From positions 33,491-97,490 of IMG/VR virus record IMGVR_UViG_3300020577_008743: a DNA stretch of 64,000 bases. One strand, 5' to 3'. The notes under the pieces are model-generated. The model made no database searches. It had not been told where the DNA came from and saw only the letters and a list, made by a program, of their open reading frames with translations. This DNA comes from a virus. Lineage: Duplodnaviria > Caudoviricetes. Both the position numbers and the translations under genes were made by a program. This document shows positions 2,992 to 12,546 of the stretch, in pieces (the first letter of the stretch is position 1; each line of letters starts with the position of its first letter).

Positions 2992-3171
2992 ATGACAAAG
3001 TCGCTCTTCGTACTGAAAAACACTAAAACCGGGAAAACATCGGCGGAGACCTTCGCAAACAAGATGGACGCGAAGAATGAACGACGAGCGAGAAACGGAA
3101 TCAGCAAGGACGGCAAGGAAATCCTCACCTGGGTCGTGGCTTACGGCCCGGATCATCACAAGTCGGCTTAG
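2992..3171 (+). CDS. small basic hypothetical protein (59 aa)
   Basis: ATG at 2992 after the tRNA; the upstream part of ORF 2692-3171 overlaps the tRNA. Confidence 0.6.
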   Translation: MTKSLFVLKNTKTGKTSAETFANKMDAKNERRARNGISKDGKEILTWVVAYGPDHHKSA

Positions 3172-3206
3172 AAATAGGTCATCGTAACTGAATGAAAGGC
3201 TTCACC

Positions 3207-4010
3207 ATGGACGCCCGGAAATCCGTAGCACTGCACACCCTCGTCGCTGTTCGCCCGACGTTGGAAACAACCCTGAAAACGATCTCAGCCGAAACGGACA
3301 ACTCCTTCCGAAAACCCGAAAGCCTGACGGAATGGGAAAAGACCTTCACATCGACGGTCACCTGGCCGGAAGGCTCCGAGGCTCTGAAGGTCGCTCTGGA
3401 ATCCCAACGTTCCGGTCACCGTGCGGCGGTCACTTCAACTCAGGATCGAATCGGTTACGAAGCCGCCGAACAGGTCAAGTACTGGGACTTGATGCACAAC
3501 ATCGAGCTGGGCAACCAGGTCGCGGTTGCTGACGTGGTCCTAAAAGACGGCACAGTCTTGATGACCCGCGTCCCCGCAACGCACTTGCGTCGACTGGATA
3601 CGTGGCTCACCACCTTCCGCAACCGCATCGCGAACTGTCCCACGGTCCCGTCAACTATCAACGTGGAACAGGCCTCCCGCAACGGCAGAATGGTCTACGC
3701 CGGACCGGTGAAAACCATCACCGTGTACGAGGAAACCAAAAGCTGGGTGAAGGTCGCCGAGGCCAATGTACACCAGAAGGAAGCCACCGTCCGCGAAGCC
3801 GTCACCAAGACGCCAATCGGCATCGAGAAGGAGATCAACTACTACGGCATGCCCACTTCTTCGGAGAAGGCACAGCTGCTGACCCGTCTTGATGAGCTGA
3901 TCGTGGCAGTCAAGGAGGCGATCACTGAATCAAACACGGTGACCATCGAACCCGTTTCGGTCTCCAAAACTCTCATGGCCTATGCCTTCACCGGCAAGGT
4001 CAATGCCTGA
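3207..4010 (+). CDS. conserved helical hypothetical protein (resembles DUF7873-like family)
   Basis: LHTLVAV N-terminus, N..AVADVV..DG.VL...VPATHL..LD, LL.RLDEL..AVKEA..ESN pattern recalled from a widespread actinobacterial/phage family; GAAAGG RBS. Confidence 0.6.
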   Translation: MDARKSVALHTLVAVRPTLETTLKTISAETDNSFRKPESLTEWEKTFTSTVTWPEGSEALKVALESQRSGHRAAVTSTQDRIGYEAAEQVKYWDLMHNIELGNQVAVADVVLKDGTVLMTRVPATHLRRLDTWLTTFRNRIANCPTVPSTINVEQASRNGRMVYAGPVKTITVYEETKSWVKVAEANVHQKEATVREAVTKTPIGIEKEINYYGMPTSSEKAQLLTRLDELIVAVKEAITESNTVTIEPVSVSKTLMAYAFTGKVNA

Positions 4011-4941: not shown

Positions 4942-5020
4942 CAAACGAAGAGCGTAAGCTCATGAATACGCCATCAACGAAGCTGACCACTTCGTTTCAA
5001 GCCCGGTCGTTCTTCGTTTG
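4942..5020 (+). ncRNA. candidate structured ncRNA or processing/terminator element
   Basis: 13-bp stem CAAACGAAGAGCG/CGTTCTTCGTTTG with inner AACGAAG/CTTCGTT hairpin. Confidence 0.4.
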
Positions 5021-5033
5021 TTTTAGCCACAAT

Positions 5034-5171
5034 TAGGACCGCAGAATTACGATTATCTATAATAGCTGACATGCTGCAGGTTCGAGTCCTGCCTGGCCCA
5101 CCATCTATGGGTCCAGTGGCGAAATGGTATACGCATCAGCCCTAAACCAGTCGTATTCATAATTTGTCCTA
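5034..5171 (+). ncRNA. Y RNA, YrlA-type (Ro-binding stem plus permuted tRNA-Leu-like domain)
   Basis: TAGGAC-CG...TTT-GTCCTA stem, TTATC motif, T arm GCAGG-TTCGAGT-CCTGC before acceptor loop and D arm. Confidence 0.85.
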
Positions 5172-5244
5172 TTCTTCAACGGGGGCGAAGTAGAAACTTA
5201 TGAAGTTCGCAGCTTCTATTTTTCGATACGCTTCCACCAACAAA

Positions 5245-5571
5245 ATGTCTCACACAACCGAGTTGTACTTCGAGTCACATATCACTATTGAGCCCGTGTT
5301 CGATGAAAGACTGGAACAGTTCAAGGGAATATGTGCTTCGGAGGGTTTCAAGGCAGCAGAGCTGCTGATGAAAAAACGTTCGGGTGATACCGCTGAACGT
5401 TCGCAGTACGATACCTTTTGCACTAGTAGAGATCTTATTTATGATAAAATCCAGACTAGAACATTAACCTTGGTCGAAAAGTTGCAGTCTTCCGGGTTTG
5501 ACGTCTGGAGATATAAGATTGAGAATACCTTGTTGGATGTTAGACTTAAATTAGAGTCTAAAATCCAGTAG
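5245..5571 (+). CDS. hypothetical protein
   Basis: ORF between Y RNAs; YFESHITI...RYKIENTLLD pattern; ATG at 5245 avoids the upstream hairpin. Confidence 0.7.
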   Translation: MSHTTELYFESHITIEPVFDERLEQFKGICASEGFKAAELLMKKRSGDTAERSQYDTFCTSRDLIYDKIQTRTLTLVEKLQSSGFDVWRYKIENTLLDVRLKLESKIQ

Positions 5572-5672
5572 GGCAAAAGATTCGATTGTTGTTTATATTA
5601 CTAAATATATTGAGTCTGTAAAAGCTGTTTGCAGTAGAATCAAGAAACATTCGTAGTACTAGAAGCATCCTC

Positions 5673-5734
5673 AGGGCCGCAGGAAGATCGGTTATCCCCT
5701 ACACTGATGACTCCGATTTCCGTATTTTCGCCCT
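5673..5734 (+). ncRNA. minimal Y-like RNA
   Basis: AGGGC-CG...TTC-GCCCT stem, upper stem ATCGG/CCGAT, GGTTATC motif. Confidence 0.8.
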
Positions 5735-5744
5735 TCCCCCAATT

Positions 5745-5805
5745 AGAGCCGATTTGAGCTGGGTTATCCTTCTAAGATACCTCCCCATCTCAGTTCCCTT
5801 GCTCT
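5745..5805 (+). ncRNA. minimal Y-like RNA
   Basis: AGAGC-CG...CTT-GCTCT stem, upper TGAG.TGGG/CCCA.CTCA, GGGTTATC motif. Confidence 0.8.
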
Positions 5806-5834
5806 CCCTCTTGTAGTTGTGGTACAATCAACTT

Positions 5835-5963
5835 TTGAGCCGCTGTTAAATTCCGTTATCTTCCTTAGAAATAGGAAGTTGCGGGTTCGAATCCCGTCGC
5901 CAGCTTATATCTGGCGTAGTTTAATTGGTAAAACTAAAACCGGAACTACACTAATTCGCTCAA
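5835..5963 (+). ncRNA. Y RNA, YrlA-type with permuted tRNA domain
   Basis: TTGAGC-CG...TTC-GCTCAA stem, TTATC, T arm GCGGG-TTCGAAT-CCCGT, acceptor CGCCAG/CTGGCG, D arm GTTT-AATTGGTA-AAAC. Confidence 0.85.
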
Positions 5964-5970
5964 CCCCATT

Positions 5971-6040
5971 TAGGGCCGTCAGGTTATGTCGGTTATCTCA
6001 CTTTTAGCGAAAACCCCGATTAACCATAAATTTTGCCCTA
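5971..6040 (+). ncRNA. minimal Y-like RNA
   Basis: TAGGGC-CG...TTT-GCCCTA stem, GGTTA..TCGG/CCGA.TAACC upper stem, TTATC motif. Confidence 0.8.
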
Positions 6041-6059
6041 CTGATTTAAATTTCAATTT

Positions 6060-6119
6060 GGAGCCGCTTAAAACTGGGTTATCAATTGGTGATTACTCCC
6101 CAGTCTAACTTTTCGCTCC
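6060..6119 (+). ncRNA. minimal Y-like RNA
   Basis: GGAGC-CG...TTC-GCTCC stem, ACTGGG/CCCAGT upper stem, GGGTTATC motif. Confidence 0.8.
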
Positions 6120-6173
6120 TCCCGTTTAAACAAAGATTGCTGGGTTCAAACCTCTTTCTTTTAGCTGTTCAAA

Positions 6174-6377
6174 ATGACCTCTCACAGAAAAATTACCCCG
6201 TCTGAACGAAATATTCTCCACCTCATAAATCGTAGCATAGCGGATTCAGAAGGCTGGTGTAATGTAAGTTCTGCCGTGTTTCCCCTTGTCAAAGACTTTG
6301 ACTCTGAACTAGTTGAAATAAACGGCAACAAAATTCGGTTGACATCGGTAGGTAAGATACTTGCAGATTGGACTTGA
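6174..6377 (+). CDS. hypothetical protein
   Basis: ORF in a tightly packed small-gene run. Confidence 0.6.
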   Translation: MTSHRKITPSERNILHLINRSIADSEGWCNVSSAVFPLVKDFDSELVEINGNKIRLTSVGKILADWT

Positions 6378-6379
6378 TT

Positions 6380-6751
6380 ATGACCGACTCAGAACTAATA
6401 CAAAATGCGGCTAAAGCCATCGGACTCATTGCAACCCCGATATTTACGGAAAATTTCGAGGGCCAGGAGTGGTGGGCGTATGAAGAAGGCAAGCCTACAC
6501 AAACGCTAAGGCCGTGGAATCCTCTTGTGGATGATGGGGATGCCCTACGGTTGCTCGTAGAACTTGGAGACTATGTCCAGGAGGGGAGCTGGCCTTATAT
6601 GTGGGGAGAGGCCCAAGAACAGGCTAAAGAAAACGATGGGCAAATAGACTGGTGTAAGGTTGTTCGTAGAACCATAGTAAAAGCTGCCGCCAATAAATGG
6701 TTAAGGATGGATAGATCAAATGAAAAAGCAACCTCTAAATCCGCAGATTGA
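6380..6751 (+). CDS. conserved phage hypothetical protein
   Basis: ELIQNAAKAIG...WNPLVDDGDALRL...RRTIVKAAA pattern typical of phage small proteins. Confidence 0.75.
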   Translation: MTDSELIQNAAKAIGLIATPIFTENFEGQEWWAYEEGKPTQTLRPWNPLVDDGDALRLLVELGDYVQEGSWPYMWGEAQEQAKENDGQIDWCKVVRRTIVKAAANKWLRMDRSNEKATSKSAD

Positions 6752-7013
6752 AAAACTTCTCGAGTTGTTAGACAAGGCCACGGAAGAACAACGAGGCAGC
6801 GAGAGGGCCCTGTACCTGTTGCTGAAACTCAATGTCGCTGTTCTTCCTGAACTGGATTACAGTTTTCACAAGGCTTTCAGACAGTATGATGTAACTGAGT
6901 CCGGTGAAATGGATATGGCAATCTGGCATCTTTTAGGGGTTTCAAAGACGTTCTGGGAGGTGTTCGGGAAAATTACCGGAACAGATGATGAGGAGCCCGG
7001 CGAAGATGGCTAG
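6720..7013 (+). CDS. hypothetical protein
   Basis: ORF overlap-coupled to neighbours. Confidence 0.65.
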   Translation: MKKQPLNPQIEKLLELLDKATEEQRGSERALYLLLKLNVAVLPELDYSFHKAFRQYDVTESGEMDMAIWHLLGVSKTFWEVFGKITGTDDEEPGEDG

Positions 7014-7224
7014 AATAGAACTTATCTTCCCCGAGGAAGGATACCGTGAAGTAATCGGTGAAAGAGCACTCACTTTGGAAGAGGCTTTTGAAGCAGGAGT
7101 ATTTTGGGCGACCAGGCAGTTTCAAAGTAAATTCGGCATGTACTACCGCAAAGATGAGTGGGGAGAAAGAGACTACGTAGATGTAAAGTCCATTTTCCCC
7201 GATCATGTCAGGGACAAGATATGA
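7006..7224 (+). CDS. hypothetical protein
   Basis: ATG at 7006 with AGGAG upstream. Confidence 0.6.
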   Translation: MARIELIFPEEGYREVIGERALTLEEAFEAGVFWATRQFQSKFGMYYRKDEWGERDYVDVKSIFPDHVRDKI

Positions 7225-7397
7225 CCTGTAGGTTTTGCAACAAACCTTCCGTCAGTTACTACGATATATCTTTGACTGGTATTGGCAATTTCATTGAATA
7301 CTGCAAGAATCACCAGGAAGAGGCTCGTCAAAAGCGCGATGAGCATGATAGATATTGGGAAGAAATCCGAAAGGAAGTTATGAGGGAAAATGGCTAA
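7221..7397 (+). CDS. small Cys-containing hypothetical protein
   Basis: ATGA overlap with previous gene; CxxC...CxxH. Confidence 0.6.
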   Translation: MTCRFCNKPSVSYYDISLTGIGNFIEYCKNHQEEARQKRDEHDRYWEEIRKEVMRENG

Positions 7398-7773
7398 AGT
7401 AACCTGGACAATAGAGGATCACATATGTAGTTCTTGCGGGGGTCGAATAGTAAGATCAGCCAAGGGAACTGGTCCCACCCCTGGAGGAAATCCCGTATAC
7501 AAGTGTTCTTTATGTGGTAAAGTTACAACAGAAATGGGAGGTCATTCCCTGTGTTGGTGCGGATATTCACAGAAATCCAATAACAACTCCCTTCCATATA
7601 AATGCGTTCCGTATTCGATATTAGAGAAATACCCTGACGGCTTAAGTTACTTTAAGTTTTGTGGATGTGATCCTAGGCGGGGAGGGGAAGTGGGAGTAAT
7701 GTTAGAGGAGGATTGGAATGAACTTAGAAAAAAAGACATTGCCGTACAAGTCATACCACCAACAGCTGATTGA
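7390..7773 (+). CDS. Cys-rich putative zinc-binding protein
   Basis: CxxCGG, CxxCG, CWCG motifs. Confidence 0.7.
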   Translation: MAKVTWTIEDHICSSCGGRIVRSAKGTGPTPGGNPVYKCSLCGKVTTEMGGHSLCWCGYSQKSNNNSLPYKCVPYSILEKYPDGLSYFKFCGCDPRRGGEVGVMLEEDWNELRKKDIAVQVIPPTAD

Positions 7774-8119
7774 GGCTAACACCAAAACAGAGGCTCTTCG
7801 AGAACTAATCTCAACATTGGGTGAATTGTTGGTAAAAGAACAGGAAGCCCGTATTTTATACGAAGATGCTGTATGGAAAATGGTCAACGATGGTTGGTTA
7901 GTCCACGGTCCGGAAGGCATGAGTGAAGCTCAACAAGCTGTCTATGATGTTTGTAAAAATCATCCGGAGCTAAAAACTCGAATAAAACAAAAGCAAGAAG
8001 AACAGAGAAATTACGAAGAAGCTACGAACAGAAATGTTCGGCTAGAATCCACTCCGGGAACATACGTACCAAATCCCAAACCCCTACCAGCCTGGCGTCG
8101 TTTGTTTCGCTGGCTGTAA
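7718..8119 (+). CDS. hypothetical coiled-coil protein
   Basis: ORF with GAGGAGG RBS. Confidence 0.65.
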   Translation: MNLEKKTLPYKSYHQQLIEANTKTEALRELISTLGELLVKEQEARILYEDAVWKMVNDGWLVHGPEGMSEAQQAVYDVCKNHPELKTRIKQKQEEQRNYEEATNRNVRLESTPGTYVPNPKPLPAWRRLFRWL

Positions 8120-8125
8120 CCAAAT

Positions 8126-8253
8126 TTGAGCCGTTAGAATTTGATTATCCAATCGCAGGACGTGGTCAAAGGTTCGAATCCTTTCTCCCCCGCCATCAAT
8201 GGGGGAGTAGCTCAGAGGTAGAGCACGTAAACTCGAATTCTGTTTTTGCTCAA
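8126..8253 (+). ncRNA. Y RNA, YrlA-type with permuted tRNA domain and encoded GCCA
   Basis: TTGAGC-CG...TTT-GCTCAA stem, TTATC, T arm AAAGG-TTCGAAT-CCTTT, acceptor CTCCCCC-GCCA.../GGGGGAG, D arm GCTC-AGAGGTA-GAGC. Confidence 0.88.
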
Positions 8254-8260
8254 TTCCAAT

Positions 8261-8391
8261 TTGGACCGAAGTTATTCAGTTATCGCTCCCAATGCGCCAG
8301 ATCGGTTAAGTCCAGCACCCGTTGATTCATGGGTCGTAGTGTATAGAAGCACGGCGCATATTTTCAATTGATTAACGTTCACTTTGTCCAA
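8261..8391 (+). ncRNA. Y RNA with degenerate tRNA-like domain, immediately 5' of Ro60
   Basis: TTGGAC-CG...TTT-GTCCAA stem, AGTTATC, TGCGCC/GGCGCA helix, GG-TTAAGT-CC T-like loop. Confidence 0.8.
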
Positions 8392-8431
8392 CTCTGTTTT
8401 TACCCGTAGTAAACCAACCTGGAGAACCGAA

Positions 8432-10108
8432 ATGTCTGCAAAGAATCTTGTGAATCACCTCGTTCCGGGCCGCTATGCTTCCATTCCTGCGAAGCGTACT
8501 CCCGCCGCCCCGAAGGTGACCAAATCCACCAACCCGAACGCTGGCCTGCCGCCAGTGTCCACTTCTGCGTATCAGAAAACCGCCGCCGGCCAAGTTCAAA
8601 ACTCGTCCGGAGCCTATGTTGGCAAATTGGATGTGTGGGCTCATCTGAATCGGTTTCTCATTCTCGGCACTTCCGGCTCGTCCTACTACGCCTCAGAGCG
8701 CAAGATGACCGTTGACATGGCCAAGGCCGTGGAAGCTGCAGTGAAATACAACGGCATTTCCACCGTCGATCTGATCGTGGAAATCAGCCAAGCCGGTGCC
8801 GCTCCAAAGAATGATCCGGCCTTGCTGGCTCTGGCCATCTGCGTCGCCAAGGGGGATGATTCCACCAAGGCCTACGCAATGAACCAGCTGCCGAAGGTAG
8901 CCAGAATTTCGACTCACCTGTTCGATTTTCTGACCTACGTTCAGGCCATGAGAGGCTGGGGAAGAACCCTGAAAGAAGGTGTTGCCAACTGGTATACTTC
9001 CAAGGATCTGAACCCCTTAGCCATGCAGATGACGAAGTATCGTCAAAGAAATGGCTGGACTCACCGCGACGTTCTGAGACTGGCTCACCCGAAGCCCACC
9101 TCCGAGTCCATGAACAATCTGTTCAAGTGGGCCATCAAAGGTCCAGAAGCACTGGAAAGAGGTGCGGAAATCCCTGAACAAGTCATCGGCTTCGAGAAGG
9201 CAAAGACCGCAGGTTCCGGTACTCTGGTCAAACTGATTCAGGATTACCGCCTGACCTGGGAGATGATTCCGACTGAGATGCTGAATGATGCCAACGTGTT
9301 TCACGCTCTAGTCATGAGCATGAATCTCGAGGCCATGATTCGCAATCTGCCGCGCATCACCAATCTCAACTTGTTGCTTACTCGGGAAGTCAGGGACCGT
9401 ATTCTGAGTCTTCTGAGAAACGCAGAGGAGATCAAGGCCAAGCGGTACCATCCCCTCAAGGCTCTGGTGGCTAGAAAGACCTACGCCAGTGGCCGAGGTC
9501 TGAAGGGTAGCATGACCTGGGTACCCAACGCCGAGGTTGCCAGGGCCCTGGAAGACACGTTCTATCTGGGGTTCGATGCAGTGGAACCCACAGGCAAAAG
9601 ACTTCTGTTGGGTATCGACGTCTCCGGCTCCATGACCATGGGCCAAGTAGGGGGCATGCCCCTTGCTCCGTACGAAGCTGTTGCCGCAATGGCAATGGTT
9701 ACGGCACGTTGCGAACCTCTGGCAGAAATCCTCGGCTTTTCGTACAACCTGCAAGACCTTGGTATCAAGAACACCGATACTCTGGCCCAGGTTCTGAAGA
9801 AAGTGCAATTGGCTCGATTTGGAAGTACGAATCCCGGAGCACTAATTCAGTACGCAGCCAAGAAAGGCAATGTGGAAGGCCTGGTCGTCTACACCGACAA
9901 CGAAGTGAACCAAGGTTCCAGCGTTGCGGCAGAGATGAAGAAATATCGCACCAAGGCTTCTGTGGCCAGAGCAACGATGACTGTAGTCGGAATGACGGTC
10001 AACAATTTCACCCTAGCCGACCCCAAAGATCCAGACATGCTCGACATTGTTGGATTCGATACCGCTGCTCCAGCAGTGATGTCCGAGTTCATCAAGGGCA
10101 CTTTCTGA
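8432..10108 (+). CDS. rsr: Ro60/Rsr RNA-binding protein (TROVE plus vWA)
   Basis: LNRFLILGT..SSYY, KYRQRNGWTHRDVLRLAHPK TROVE signature, DVSGSM MIDAS, YTDNE, DIVGFD; ATG 8432 with GGAG RBS. Confidence 0.96.
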   Translation: MSAKNLVNHLVPGRYASIPAKRTPAAPKVTKSTNPNAGLPPVSTSAYQKTAAGQVQNSSGAYVGKLDVWAHLNRFLILGTSGSSYYASERKMTVDMAKAVEAAVKYNGISTVDLIVEISQAGAAPKNDPALLALAICVAKGDDSTKAYAMNQLPKVARISTHLFDFLTYVQAMRGWGRTLKEGVANWYTSKDLNPLAMQMTKYRQRNGWTHRDVLRLAHPKPTSESMNNLFKWAIKGPEALERGAEIPEQVIGFEKAKTAGSGTLVKLIQDYRLTWEMIPTEMLNDANVFHALVMSMNLEAMIRNLPRITNLNLLLTREVRDRILSLLRNAEEIKAKRYHPLKALVARKTYASGRGLKGSMTWVPNAEVARALEDTFYLGFDAVEPTGKRLLLGIDVSGSMTMGQVGGMPLAPYEAVAAMAMVTARCEPLAEILGFSYNLQDLGIKNTDTLAQVLKKVQLARFGSTNPGALIQYAAKKGNVEGLVVYTDNEVNQGSSVAAEMKKYRTKASVARATMTVVGMTVNNFTLADPKDPDMLDIVGFDTAAPAVMSEFIKGTF

Positions 10109-10155
10109 TTTACAGTTTCACGTACTAGCCCAAAAACCGACTGGGTTGGTATTTT

Positions 10156-10182
10156 AGGGTGCAGAACATCGTACCCTTTTTT
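10156..10182 (+). terminator. intrinsic terminator after rsr
   Basis: AGGGTGC/GTACCCT hairpin plus T-run. Confidence 0.7.
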
Positions 10183-10235
10183 AGCCTTTACTTGGTATAA
10201 GGGAAATAACGAGACGAATTATTTAAGGAGCAGTT

Positions 10236-12469: not shown

Positions 12470-12546
12470 CTGCCCGTAGCTCAGTTGGATAGAGCACCGA
12501 GCTTCTACCTCGGGTGTCGGGGGTTCGAATCCCTCCGGGCAGGCCA
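12470..12546 (+). tRNA. tRNA-Arg(TCT)
   Basis: Cloverleaf CTGCCCG/CGGGCAG, CT-TCT-AC loop, encoded CCA; promoter motif at 12441. Confidence 0.95.

What the first reader, a model, noticed from the sequence alone, without database searches (positions are those of the whole stretch)
5673..6119. Minimal 60-70 nt Y RNAs lacking a tRNA domain but carrying the animal-type GUUAUC motif
Seen: four short elements, e.g. GGAGCCGCUUAAAACUGGGUUAUC...CCCCAGU...UUUUCGCUCC (6060-6119), made only of lower stem, upper stem and a loop beginning UUAUC. Known: human Y1/Y4 begin GGUCCG-N11-UUAUC and nematode stem-bulge RNAs conserve UUAUC, whereas the widespread bacterial YrlA class is defined by a tRNA-like domain. 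Inference: these are viral RNAs with animal-like Y architecture that YrlA-based searches would probably miss. They suggest UUAUC is an ancient Ro-RNP element.
Basis: partly seen in the sequence, partly recalled or inferred. Interest (0 to 1): 0.88.

Follow-up and report, generated by a model that had tools for sequence, protein, structure and literature searches.

The report
Phage mini Y RNAs, animal-like
Four ~60-base hairpin RNA genes upstream of a phage's Ro60 gene belong to a large family of miniature Y RNAs that I found described in no paper I could search; the family sits beside Ro60 genes in bacteria and phages, and its stems and UUAUC motif match animal Y RNAs and nematode stem-bulge RNAs almost letter for letter.

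Summary
Window 5673-5734, 5745-5805, 5972-6039 and 6060-6119 (+ strand) are four 60-68 nt hairpins. Each has a lower stem with a bulged C (RGRGC[C]G / YGYYCY), an upper stem, and a loop that opens with UUAUC. None has a tRNA-like domain.

They lie 2.3-2.7 kb upstream of a TROVE/vWA Ro60 gene. Four longer, tRNA-like Y RNAs in the same window also carry UUAUC.

I built a covariance model from 40 similar elements of other loci, excluding this phage and its nearest relative. In the 64-kb window it finds exactly these four (E 3.5e-6 to 2.3e-3). In 161 Ro60 loci it finds 215 copies, all on the Ro60 strand, with strong covariation.

UUAUC follows the CCG 11 nt downstream. Rfam's vertebrate Y RNA and nematode sbRNA consensus sequences show the same spacing. 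The nematode sbRNA model (RF01656) scores bacterial family members above its gathering cut-off. It does not reach the window's own diverged copies, and neither do the YrlA and Y_RNA models.

The most likely function is as small Ro60-binding gate or adaptor RNAs. Expression and binding are untested.

The scan found this family before on other DNA (e1-5758126, e1-5339957). I found no published description.

The parts
5673..5734 (+). Mini Y RNA 1 (62 nt): lower stem AGGGC[C]G / CGCCCU, upper stem GGAA(G)AUCGG / CCGAUUUCC, UUAUC at 5692-5696
   Evidence: R1 gives 35.1 bits, E 6.5e-6. It is the positional counterpart of L003:9121-9182, which lies after the same conserved ORF.
5745..5805 (+). Mini Y RNA 2 (61 nt): lower stem AGAGC[C]GA / UUGCUCU, UUAUC at 5764-5768, apical hairpin UAUC / GAUA with the 7-nt loop CUUCUAA
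   Evidence: R1 gives 36.3 bits, E 3.5e-6. Its counterpart L003:9454-9515 keeps the loop (GUUCUAA) while both stems change with compensation.
5972..6039 (+). Mini Y RNA 3 (68 nt): lower stem AGGGC[C]G / UGCCCU, UUAUC at 5993-5997
   Evidence: R1 gives 28.5 bits, E 2.1e-4.
6060..6119 (+). Mini Y RNA 4 (60 nt): lower stem GGAGC[C]G / CGCUCC, UUAUC at 6079-6083
   Evidence: R1 gives 24.0 bits, E 2.3e-3.
5835..5965 (+). tRNA-like (YrlA-type) Y RNA lying between minis 2 and 3. It has the same Ro-binding stem and UUAUC (5856-5860), plus a T arm, a closed acceptor hairpin and a D arm.
   Evidence: Rfam YrlA gives 33.5 bits, below its cut-off of 69. Fold.
5034..5171 (+). tRNA-like Y RNA with an AGGACCG...UUAUC 5' module
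   Evidence: Rfam YrlA gives 20.7 bits over the full model length..
8125..8255 (+). tRNA-like Y RNA (GAGCCG, 11 nt, UUAUC)
8261..8391 (+). Y RNA with GGACCGAAG, GUUAUC and a diverged tRNA-like interior; it abuts the Ro60 gene
8432..10108 (+). Ro60 (TROVE + vWA_Ro60) gene, 558 aa. The ORF is open from 8384.
   Evidence: Pfam TROVE E 3e-39 and vWA_Ro60 E 1e-41. P0001. PDB relatives: Deinococcus Rsr 331 bits, Xenopus Ro60 309 bits, human RO60 304 bits.

Best explanation
The four elements are genes for miniature Y RNAs, the small RNA partners of the phage's own Ro60 protein.

Proposed mechanism, step by step:
- Each is probably cut out of a long + strand transcript that also carries the neighbouring tRNA-like Y RNAs and small ORFs (inferred; each element is preceded by AAUUU).
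- It folds into a ~60-nt bulged hairpin (shown by covariation in the family).
- Ro60 binds the lower stem, meaning the 5' strand GRNC[C]G with its bulged C, on the outer face of its ring, as in the Xenopus Ro60-Y RNA structure (inferred by analogy).
- The upper stem has a nearly fixed length. It places the UUAUC junction and a small apical hairpin at a set distance from that site, near the rim of the central cavity.
- There the RNA gates access of substrate RNAs, or docks one partner protein (inferred).
- With no tRNA-like effector domain, the minis would act as lids or as alternative adaptors beside the four tRNA-like Y RNAs. The phage would then have eight interchangeable regulators of Ro60.

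UUAUC is most likely a sequence-specific contact or kink element of the Ro RNP. It is not a tRNA-mimicry element, because it is kept whether or not the tRNA domain is present.
For: Linkage:
- The Ro60 gene is in the window, and all eight elements are on its strand.
- In 161 other Ro60 loci, model R1 finds 215 elements at E<=0.01, all on the Ro60 strand. About 193 are upstream and 19 downstream. 54 of 81 viral loci and 58 of 80 bacterial loci have at least one element of 80 nt or less.
- In five whole genomes of 3.3-9.4 Mb, four have hits and every hit lies in the Ro60 locus; the fifth has none.

Structure:
- 94.4% of cells are paired, against 68-76% in shuffles and 33-52% when the partner is slid.
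- 351-370 cells have changes on both sides, against about 105 in shuffles (0 of 500 shuffles reach the observed value).
- There are many G-U pairs, which fit only this strand as RNA.
- Within the phage pair, positions 1 and 3 of the lower stem covary: AU, UA and GC at position 1; GC and AU at position 3.

Membership: R1 excluded this phage, yet it finds exactly the four elements.

Motif:
- UUAUC is as invariant as the known Ro60 contact GGnCCG in the alignment.
- It lies 11 nt after the CCG in 132 of 161 copies. Rfam's Y_RNA and sbRNA consensus sequences have the same 11 nt.
- It is present in 12 of 13 elements picked up by the YrlA and Deinococcus Y RNA models, which do not contain the motif.

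Literature:
- Bacteria have a second, hairpin-type Y RNA bound by Rsr (PMC4201824).
- A phage Ro60 binds phage-encoded hairpin Yrl RNAs and host PNPase (PMC12135203).
- The UA of the motif makes a kink in the YrlA crystal structure (bioRxiv 10.1101/312249).
Against:
- There is no promoter or terminator signal above chance.
- Single-sequence folding z-scores are weak.
- The four minis lack the AA of the bacterial Ro-binding motif GNCGAA (they read GCCGCA, GCCGAU, GCCGUC, GCCGCU). In phage phiLo, each base of CGAA contributes 3-4 fold to affinity (PMC12135203).
- The seeds of R1 were chosen with a TTATC filter, so the 80% motif frequency among R1 hits is biased upward.
- The alignments used for the pair counts were fitted to the model.
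- In nematodes, the UUAUC-bearing sbRNAs were not found in ROP-1 (Ro60) immunoprecipitates (PMC4726728). A Ro60 contact for UUAUC is therefore not supported on the animal side.
Confidence: 0.8

Rival explanations
1. They are not stand-alone RNAs. They are cis-acting hairpins within a polycistronic transcript: processing sites, stabilisers, attenuators, or Ro60-binding operators that let Ro60 regulate neighbouring genes.
For: The elements are packed 8-30 nt apart between ORFs and other RNAs, with no promoter or terminator signal above chance. In many bacteria one mini lies directly before the Ro60 start (for example at about 2810 of L095, L098, L105, L115, L126, where Ro60 starts at 3001). That position would suit an autoregulatory leader.
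Against: Generic processing hairpins would not keep GGnCCG, UUAUC and CUUG across phyla. The same module closes the tRNA-like Y RNAs, which in Salmonella, Mycobacterium and Deinococcus accumulate as discrete Rsr-bound RNAs cut from precursors (PMC4201824). In the window, five ORFs separate the minis from Ro60.
Confidence: 0.08
2. They are decaying remnants of tRNA-like Y RNAs that lost the T, acceptor and D domain. They have no function of their own.
For: The minis and the tRNA-like forms share one scaffold. The same model aligns 100-125 nt elements as minis with an insertion in the loop. The window's minis 3 and 4 have no mini counterpart in L003, where tRNA-like elements follow instead.
Against: Minis occur in 112 of 161 loci, often in several copies, with stems kept by compensatory changes. 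Mini 2 and its L003 counterpart keep the loop sequence while both stems changed. Decay would not preserve this.
Confidence: 0.05
3. TTATC and the flanking inverted repeats are DNA-level protein-binding sites (for example a DnaA-box-like TTATC), not RNA.
For: TTATC is the first half of the DnaA box, and mini 1 reads TTATCCCCT. This reading comes from my own knowledge only.
Against: The strand bias is complete (215 to 0). G-U pairs are frequent: pair 7 is G-U in 100 of 120 rows and pair 4 in 42 of 120, and these would be mismatches in DNA hairpins of the other strand. Only TTATC is conserved, not the rest of a DnaA box. The motif position is fixed relative to the RNA helices.
Confidence: 0.02

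Closest known systems
Nematode stem-bulge RNAs (sbRNAs; Rfam RF01656 ceN72-3_ceN74-2)
   Same: The conserved letters and their order are the same: CGGnCCGrAG, a 4-bp variable block, UGGGUUAUC opening the loop, then CCCA, the variable block, and CACCAACUUGnCCG. There is a bulged C, and 11 nt separate CCG from UUAUC. Bacterial family members score 39-44 bits, above the cut-off of 38.
   Different: sbRNAs have a loop of about 60 nt, against 10-20 nt here. They are eukaryotic transcripts needed for DNA replication, and they were not recovered with the worm Ro60 (PMC4450293, PMC4726728). The window's four copies do not reach the model at all.
Vertebrate Y RNAs (Rfam RF00019)
   Same: Both have a Ro60-binding lower stem with a bulged C, an upper stem ending GUGGG / CCCAC, UUAU(C) at the start of the loop, the same 11-nt spacing and ACUUG on the 3' side.
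   Different: They are longer (84-112 nt), with large pyrimidine-rich loops. The best bacterial relative scores only 23.4 bits against a cut-off of 38, and the window copies give no hit.
YrlA (Rfam RF02553; Chen 2014, PMC4201824; Wang 2018, bioRxiv 10.1101/312249)
   Same: Both have a Ro60-binding stem and are encoded beside Ro60 on the same strand. UUAUC sits where YrlA has its conserved YUAY, whose UA makes a kink. The window has four such tRNA-like RNAs beside the minis.
   Different: The T arm, closed acceptor stem and D arm that define YrlA are absent. YrlA's consensus at the motif position is CUA, not UUAUC.
YrlB (Salmonella, M. smegmatis) and Yrn2 (D. radiodurans): second, hairpin-type bacterial Y RNAs
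   Same: These are Rsr-bound RNAs encoded next to rsr. [quoted passage not shown]
   Different: No conserved family or UUAUC motif was reported for them. M. smegmatis YrlB has a possible T arm.
Yrl1 and Yrl2 of Thermus phage phiLo (PMC12135203)
   Same: They are phage-encoded hairpin Y-like RNAs upstream of a phage Ro60, shown to bind that Ro60 and to form a complex with host PNPase.
   Different: They were defined by a CGAA motif, which the window's minis lack. The phiLo Ro60 is only distantly related (28 bits). No UUAUC is mentioned in that paper.

Membership tests
Y RNA (functional class: small RNA bound by Ro60) | Encoded close to, and on the same strand as, a Ro60/TROVE gene (the prokaryotic criterion of Chen 2014) | tested here: met
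   The Ro60 gene is at 8432-10108 (+). The minis lie 2.3-2.7 kb upstream on the + strand. Chen 2014 describes the characterised Deinococcus and Salmonella Y RNAs as encoded within 2 kb of Rsr, so these lie slightly beyond that range.
Y RNA (functional class: small RNA bound by Ro60) | The 5' and 3' ends pair into a stem with a bulged C and a conserved 5' strand (GGUCCG-like) | tested here: met
   RGRGC[C]G pairs with YGYYCY in all four, with covariation at positions 1 and 3.
Y RNA (functional class: small RNA bound by Ro60) | Physically bound and stabilised by Ro60, and accumulates as a discrete small RNA | not testable with these tools
There is no binding assay.
YrlA (Rfam RF02553) | tRNA-like domain (T arm, closed acceptor stem, D arm) | tested here: not met
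   None of the four has a T-loop or D-loop, and there is no YrlA or tRNA hit at E<=10.
YrlA (Rfam RF02553) | GNCGAAN0-1G motif near the 5' end | tested here: not met
   The elements read GCCGCAGG, GCCGAUUUG, GCCGUCAGG and GCCGCUUAA. GNCG is kept and AA is not.
Nematode sbRNA (Rfam RF01656) | Covariance-model score at or above the gathering score of 38 bits | tested here: not met
   There is no hit in the window region at E<=10, nor in the whole virus record at E<=1. Bacterial relatives of the same R1 family do pass, at 39.4-44.4 bits.
Nematode sbRNA (Rfam RF01656) | UUAUC at the 5' end of the loop, directly after the upper stem | tested here: met
   Present in all four.
Vertebrate Y RNA (Rfam RF00019) | Covariance-model score at or above the gathering score of 38 bits | tested here: not met
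   No hit at E<=10. The best family relative scores 23.4 bits.
   24.0-36.3 bits, E 2.3e-3 to 3.5e-6, covering the full model length, and no other hit in the window.
   The caveat is that the alignments were fitted to the model.
YrlB / Yrn2 type | Sequence or structural similarity to the characterised YrlB and Yrn2 RNAs | not tested
   Their sequences were not at hand. The supplement of PMC4201824 is not held.

The most novel reading that the evidence does not exclude
The ~60-nt mini Y RNA is the ancestral core of all Y-type RNAs. It consists of a lower stem with a bulged C, an upper stem that sets an 11-nt spacing, UUAUC, and a small apical hairpin. It would be one homologous module that travelled with Ro60 between bacteria, phages and animals. 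UUAUC would be read by Ro60 itself or by a conserved partner. The bacterial tRNA-like domain and the long animal loops would be later insertions into the apical loop.

A further twist concerns the apical hairpin. In about 40% of minis it has a 7-nt loop with the anticodon-loop signature Y-U-NNN-R-A (in mini 2 the loop is CUUCUAA, against CUUCUAC in the phage's own tRNA-Arg(UCU)). Some minis may therefore present an anticodon-arm mimic to a tRNA-binding enzyme or nuclease.
Probability: 0.4. Interest if true: 0.85.

Novelty: new variant of a known kind. Interest (0 to 1): 0.72.

Why it matters
[quoted passage not shown] They treat the upper stem and UUAUC as features of animal RNAs tied to DNA replication.

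Here the same letters, in the same order and at the same spacing, recur in more than 200 small RNAs beside Ro60 genes of many bacterial phyla and phages. The nematode model recognises some of them above its curated cut-off.

This has three consequences.
- It makes an old question testable: what do the upper stem and UUAUC do, and are they part of the Ro RNP? A 60-nt RNA and a bacterial or phage Ro60 are well suited to crystallography and binding assays.
- It gives a search model for Y RNAs that YrlA-based annotation misses. All eight Y RNAs of this phage fall below Rfam's cut-offs.
- It shows that phages can carry whole sets of Y RNAs: here four minis and four tRNA-like forms.

Tried and rejected
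- Megablast of 5000-10200 against phage records gave no match.
- A single-protein scan of viral contigs found no relative. An alignment-based scan was needed.
- Rfam at gathering score finds only three tRNAs in the window. At E<=10 the four minis get no hit.
- RF01656 gives nothing in the whole virus record, and nothing above cut-off in 14 control genomes, including Deinococcus and Bacteroides, which do have Ro60. The family is therefore not universal among Ro60 bearers.
- The promoter and terminator scan gave counts at chance level.
- Antisense idea: the loops of the four minis have no complementary site in the window longer than shuffled loops give (9-10 nt against a mean of 10). Rejected.
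- My first structural scanner used 5-bp closure plus a 4-bp upper stem. It was not selective, since 24 of 36 minus-strand controls passed. I replaced it with the covariance model.
- RNAalifold on a MAFFT alignment of the six phage minis recovers only the lower stem, because the 3' strands are out of register.
- Pairing of the motif itself with the loop is only a modest signal: positions 3-5 are paired in 48 of 152 minis, against 19-31 of 152 after shuffling the loop.
- Coevolution of motif variant with Ro60 type: UUAUC and UUACC co-occur in single loci (L021, L125), so there is no signal.
- The reviews by the Wolin laboratory (PMC10870794, PMC6542706) and the supplement of PMC4201824 are not held. 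A published mention of this family cannot be excluded.

Full report
**What is there.** The window is part of a 97.5-kb IMG/VR virus record estimated 63% complete. ORF 8384-10108 (+) carries the TROVE and vWA_Ro60 domains. The protein on record has 558 aa. It is about as similar to Deinococcus Rsr (331 bits) as to Xenopus Ro60 (309 bits) and human Ro60 (304 bits).

Reading 5000-7000 and 8080-8420 shows eight + strand elements of one grammar:
- a 5' strand RGRNC[C]G;
- 11-14 nt that form the 5' side of an upper stem;
- UUAUC;
- an interior;
- the 3' side of the upper stem;
- a U-rich stretch;
- YGNYCY, which pairs with the 5' end.

Four of the eight have a T arm, a hairpin-closed acceptor stem and a D arm inside (5034-5171, 5835-5965, 8125-8255, 8261-8391). 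Rfam's YrlA model touches two of these, at 20.7 and 33.5 bits, far below its cut-off of 69.

The other four are the finding: 5673-5734, 5745-5805, 5972-6039 and 6060-6119. They have only a 17-23 nt interior and no tRNA-like part. They get no Rfam hit at E<=10.

**Is it more than chance?** GCCG-N8-16-TTATC occurs 8 times in the window against 2.4 expected, and five of the eight are within 5676-6083.

The stronger test is external. I collected 80 viral and 80 bacterial loci that encode Ro60 relatives of 38-47% identity, plus the one close relative, L003. L003 is a 14-kb contig with 68% Ro60 identity and the same gene order.

On the Ro60 strand of these loci, G.CCG-N6-18-TTATC occurs 345 times, against 36 on the other strand. 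I took 40 short elements from them, excluding the window and L003, aligned them (A3) and built covariance model R1.

The next hit has E 1.7.

**A family, tied to Ro60.**
- R1 finds 215 elements at E<=0.01 in the 161 loci and the window. All are on the Ro60 strand, and 168 are 80 nt or shorter.
- 54 of 81 viral loci and 58 of 80 bacterial loci have at least one short element.
- About 193 lie upstream and 19 downstream of Ro60.
- The record titles span Chloroflexota, Verrucomicrobiota, Armatimonadota, Myxococcota, Gemmatimonadota, Abditibacteria, an alphaproteobacterial MAG and two archaeal MAG contigs.
- In five whole genomes of 3.3-9.4 Mb, every R1 hit lies in the Ro60 locus; one of the five has no hit.

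The helices covary. 94.4% of cells are paired, against 68-76% after shuffling and 33-52% with the partner slid. 351-370 cells have changes on both sides, against about 105 (0 of 500 shuffles). G-U pairs are frequent. The alignments were fitted to the model, which inflates pairing somewhat. The gap to the slid controls is nevertheless large.

Between the window and L003, mini 2 and L003:9454-9515 keep the loop (UUCUAAGAUA) while both stems change with compensation.

**The UUAUC motif.** In A2 and A3, UUAUC is invariant, as are C5, C6 and G7 of the Ro60 contact strand. That result is circular, because the seeds were picked with TTATC. Three checks do not depend on that choice.
- After every GGGMCG on the Ro60 strand, TTATC is the most enriched 5-mer (22% against 0.7% on the other strand). 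It sits at one offset in 212 of 276 cases.
- Twelve of 13 elements found by Rfam's YrlA or Deinococcus Y RNA models carry GUUAUC, GUUAUU, GUUACC or GUUUAUC at this place. Those models have no UUAUC. The exception is a different RNA without a Ro-binding stem.
- Every Y-type element I read in L003 (seven) and all eight in the window have it.

Among 201 distinct R1 hits the motif is UUAUC in 161, UUACC in about 24, UUCUC in 6 and UUAUU in 5. The spacer from CCG is 11 nt in 132 of 161.

UUAUC is therefore not special to the minis. It is a feature of all Y-type RNAs beside this Ro60 clade. It corresponds to the conserved YUAY that Chen et al. placed at the start of the V loop of YrlA (PMC4201824). 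The UA of that YUAY makes a kink in the Salmonella YrlA crystal structure (bioRxiv 10.1101/312249). Rfam's YrlA consensus has CUA there.

**Comparison with animals.** Kowalski and Krude describe UUAUC at the 5' end of the loop as highly conserved in nematode sbRNAs, present in vertebrate Y RNAs, and needed for the DNA-replication activity of sbRNAs. They call bacterial Y RNAs not homologous to vertebrate ones (PMC4450293, PMC4726728).

A scan of nine loci with all Rfam models gave six hits of the nematode sbRNA family RF01656 above its gathering score of 38. These range from 39.4 to 44.4 bits and come from Verrucomicrobiota, Armatimonadota and Chloroflexota contigs. All six fall on elements that R1 also finds as minis (60-63 nt).

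The printed alignment shows the model consensus CGGUCCGGaG-ucga-UGGGUUAUC ... CCCA-ucga-CACCAACUUGACCG. It lies against bacterial CGGGCCGAAG-AACC-UGGGUUAUC ... CCCA-GGUU-CACCAACUUGCCCG.

The vertebrate Y_RNA model reaches 23.4 bits (cut-off 38). Its consensus is GGUCCgAagguaGUGGGUUAu ... UCCCAC ... ACUuGAC.

The spacer of 11 nt is the same in all three. The window's four copies are diverged (A/U-rich internal loops, no CGAAG) and do not reach either animal model. They join the animal-like consensus only through R1.

**How it most likely works.**
- Shown: the elements are structured RNAs under selection, on the Ro60 strand, and found only at Ro60 loci.
- Inferred from the Xenopus and Deinococcus work and from phage phiLo (PMC4201824, PMC12135203): Ro60 binds the lower stem and its bulged C. 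The rest of the RNA lies over the ring and gates substrates or docks a partner such as PNPase.
- Inferred from the fixed 11-nt spacing, and from retention with or without the tRNA domain: UUAUC is read in a set geometry relative to the Ro60 site, by Ro60 or by a factor docked on it, or it forms a kink that orients the apical part.
- Evidence against a Ro60 contact: sbRNAs were not recovered with worm Ro60 (PMC4726728).

**Rivals.** I weigh three rivals in the rivals section: cis-acting processing or operator hairpins, decaying YrlA remnants, and DNA-level sites. Together I give them about 0.15.

**Novelty.** Short Rsr-bound hairpin Y RNAs (YrlB, Yrn2) and phage Yrl RNAs are known. The authors themselves say that such RNAs escaped bioinformatic discovery (PMC4201824).

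In the searchable library I found no description of either of these:
- a conserved family of 55-70 nt Y RNAs across phyla;
- the letter-for-letter match to sbRNA and Y RNA consensus sequences.

Key reviews are not held, so a published mention cannot be ruled out.

Earlier agents of this scan reached the same family on other phages (e1-5758126, e1-5339957, e1-5531036). I read those notes after my own analysis.

My verdict is a new variant of a known kind, of which the window holds four diverged members.

Noticed in passing
family-wide; window 5768-5782; window 12470-12546: In 59 of 151 minis the apical hairpin has a 7-nt loop with the anticodon-loop signature: pyrimidine at position 1 (50 of 59), U at position 2 (55 of 59), purine at position 6 (47 of 59) and A at position 7 (37 of 59). 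Mini 2 has CUUCUAA, while the phage's own tRNA-Arg(UCU) has CUUCUAC. The tRNA-like relatives carry such a hairpin in front of the T arm, for example CUCAUAA in L124 and L126.
   Followed up: partly
window 5668-5672, 5740-5744, 5967-5971, 6055-6059, 8120-8124, 8256-8260; L003 likewise: Every Y-type element is directly preceded by an A/U-rich AAUU(U) stretch, and several are followed by a C-rich run. This may be a processing signal for release from a polycistronic transcript.
   Followed up: no
L003:6222-6413: The related phage contig has a group I intron hit above Rfam's cut-off (59.1 bits, cut-off 50) in a 1.3-kb stretch without called genes.
   Followed up: no
L003:7739-7866: There is a permuted tRNA-like RNA (T arm, long closed acceptor hairpin, D arm) without a Ro-binding stem or UUAUC. 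Rfam YrlA scores it only 29 bits. It lies after the DUF7873 gene in the relative.
   Followed up: no
L098, L124, L116 (Verrucomicrobiota and other MAG contigs): In these genomes the Ro60 gene and its Y RNAs sit inside very dense tRNA arrays. L098 has about 20 tRNA hits in 7.6 kb.
   Followed up: no
L166:2812-2875 (Mycobacterium phage LinStu, NC_023714): A weak mini Y candidate (16.5 bits, E 0.059) lies inside the annotated 57-aa hypothetical CDS gp230, just upstream of the Ro-like gene. A second candidate (15 bits) lies in the unannotated gap at 2536-2602. The CDS call may be wrong.
   Followed up: partly
L094 and L130: Contigs binned as Bathyarchaeota and Nitrosotalea (archaea) carry Ro60 and R1 hits: four in L094, up to 40 bits, and one in L130. 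This could be gene transfer or a binning error.
   Followed up: no
window 3192-4010 and L003:6743-7528: A DUF7873 protein gene is conserved upstream of the Y RNA cluster in both phages.
   Followed up: no
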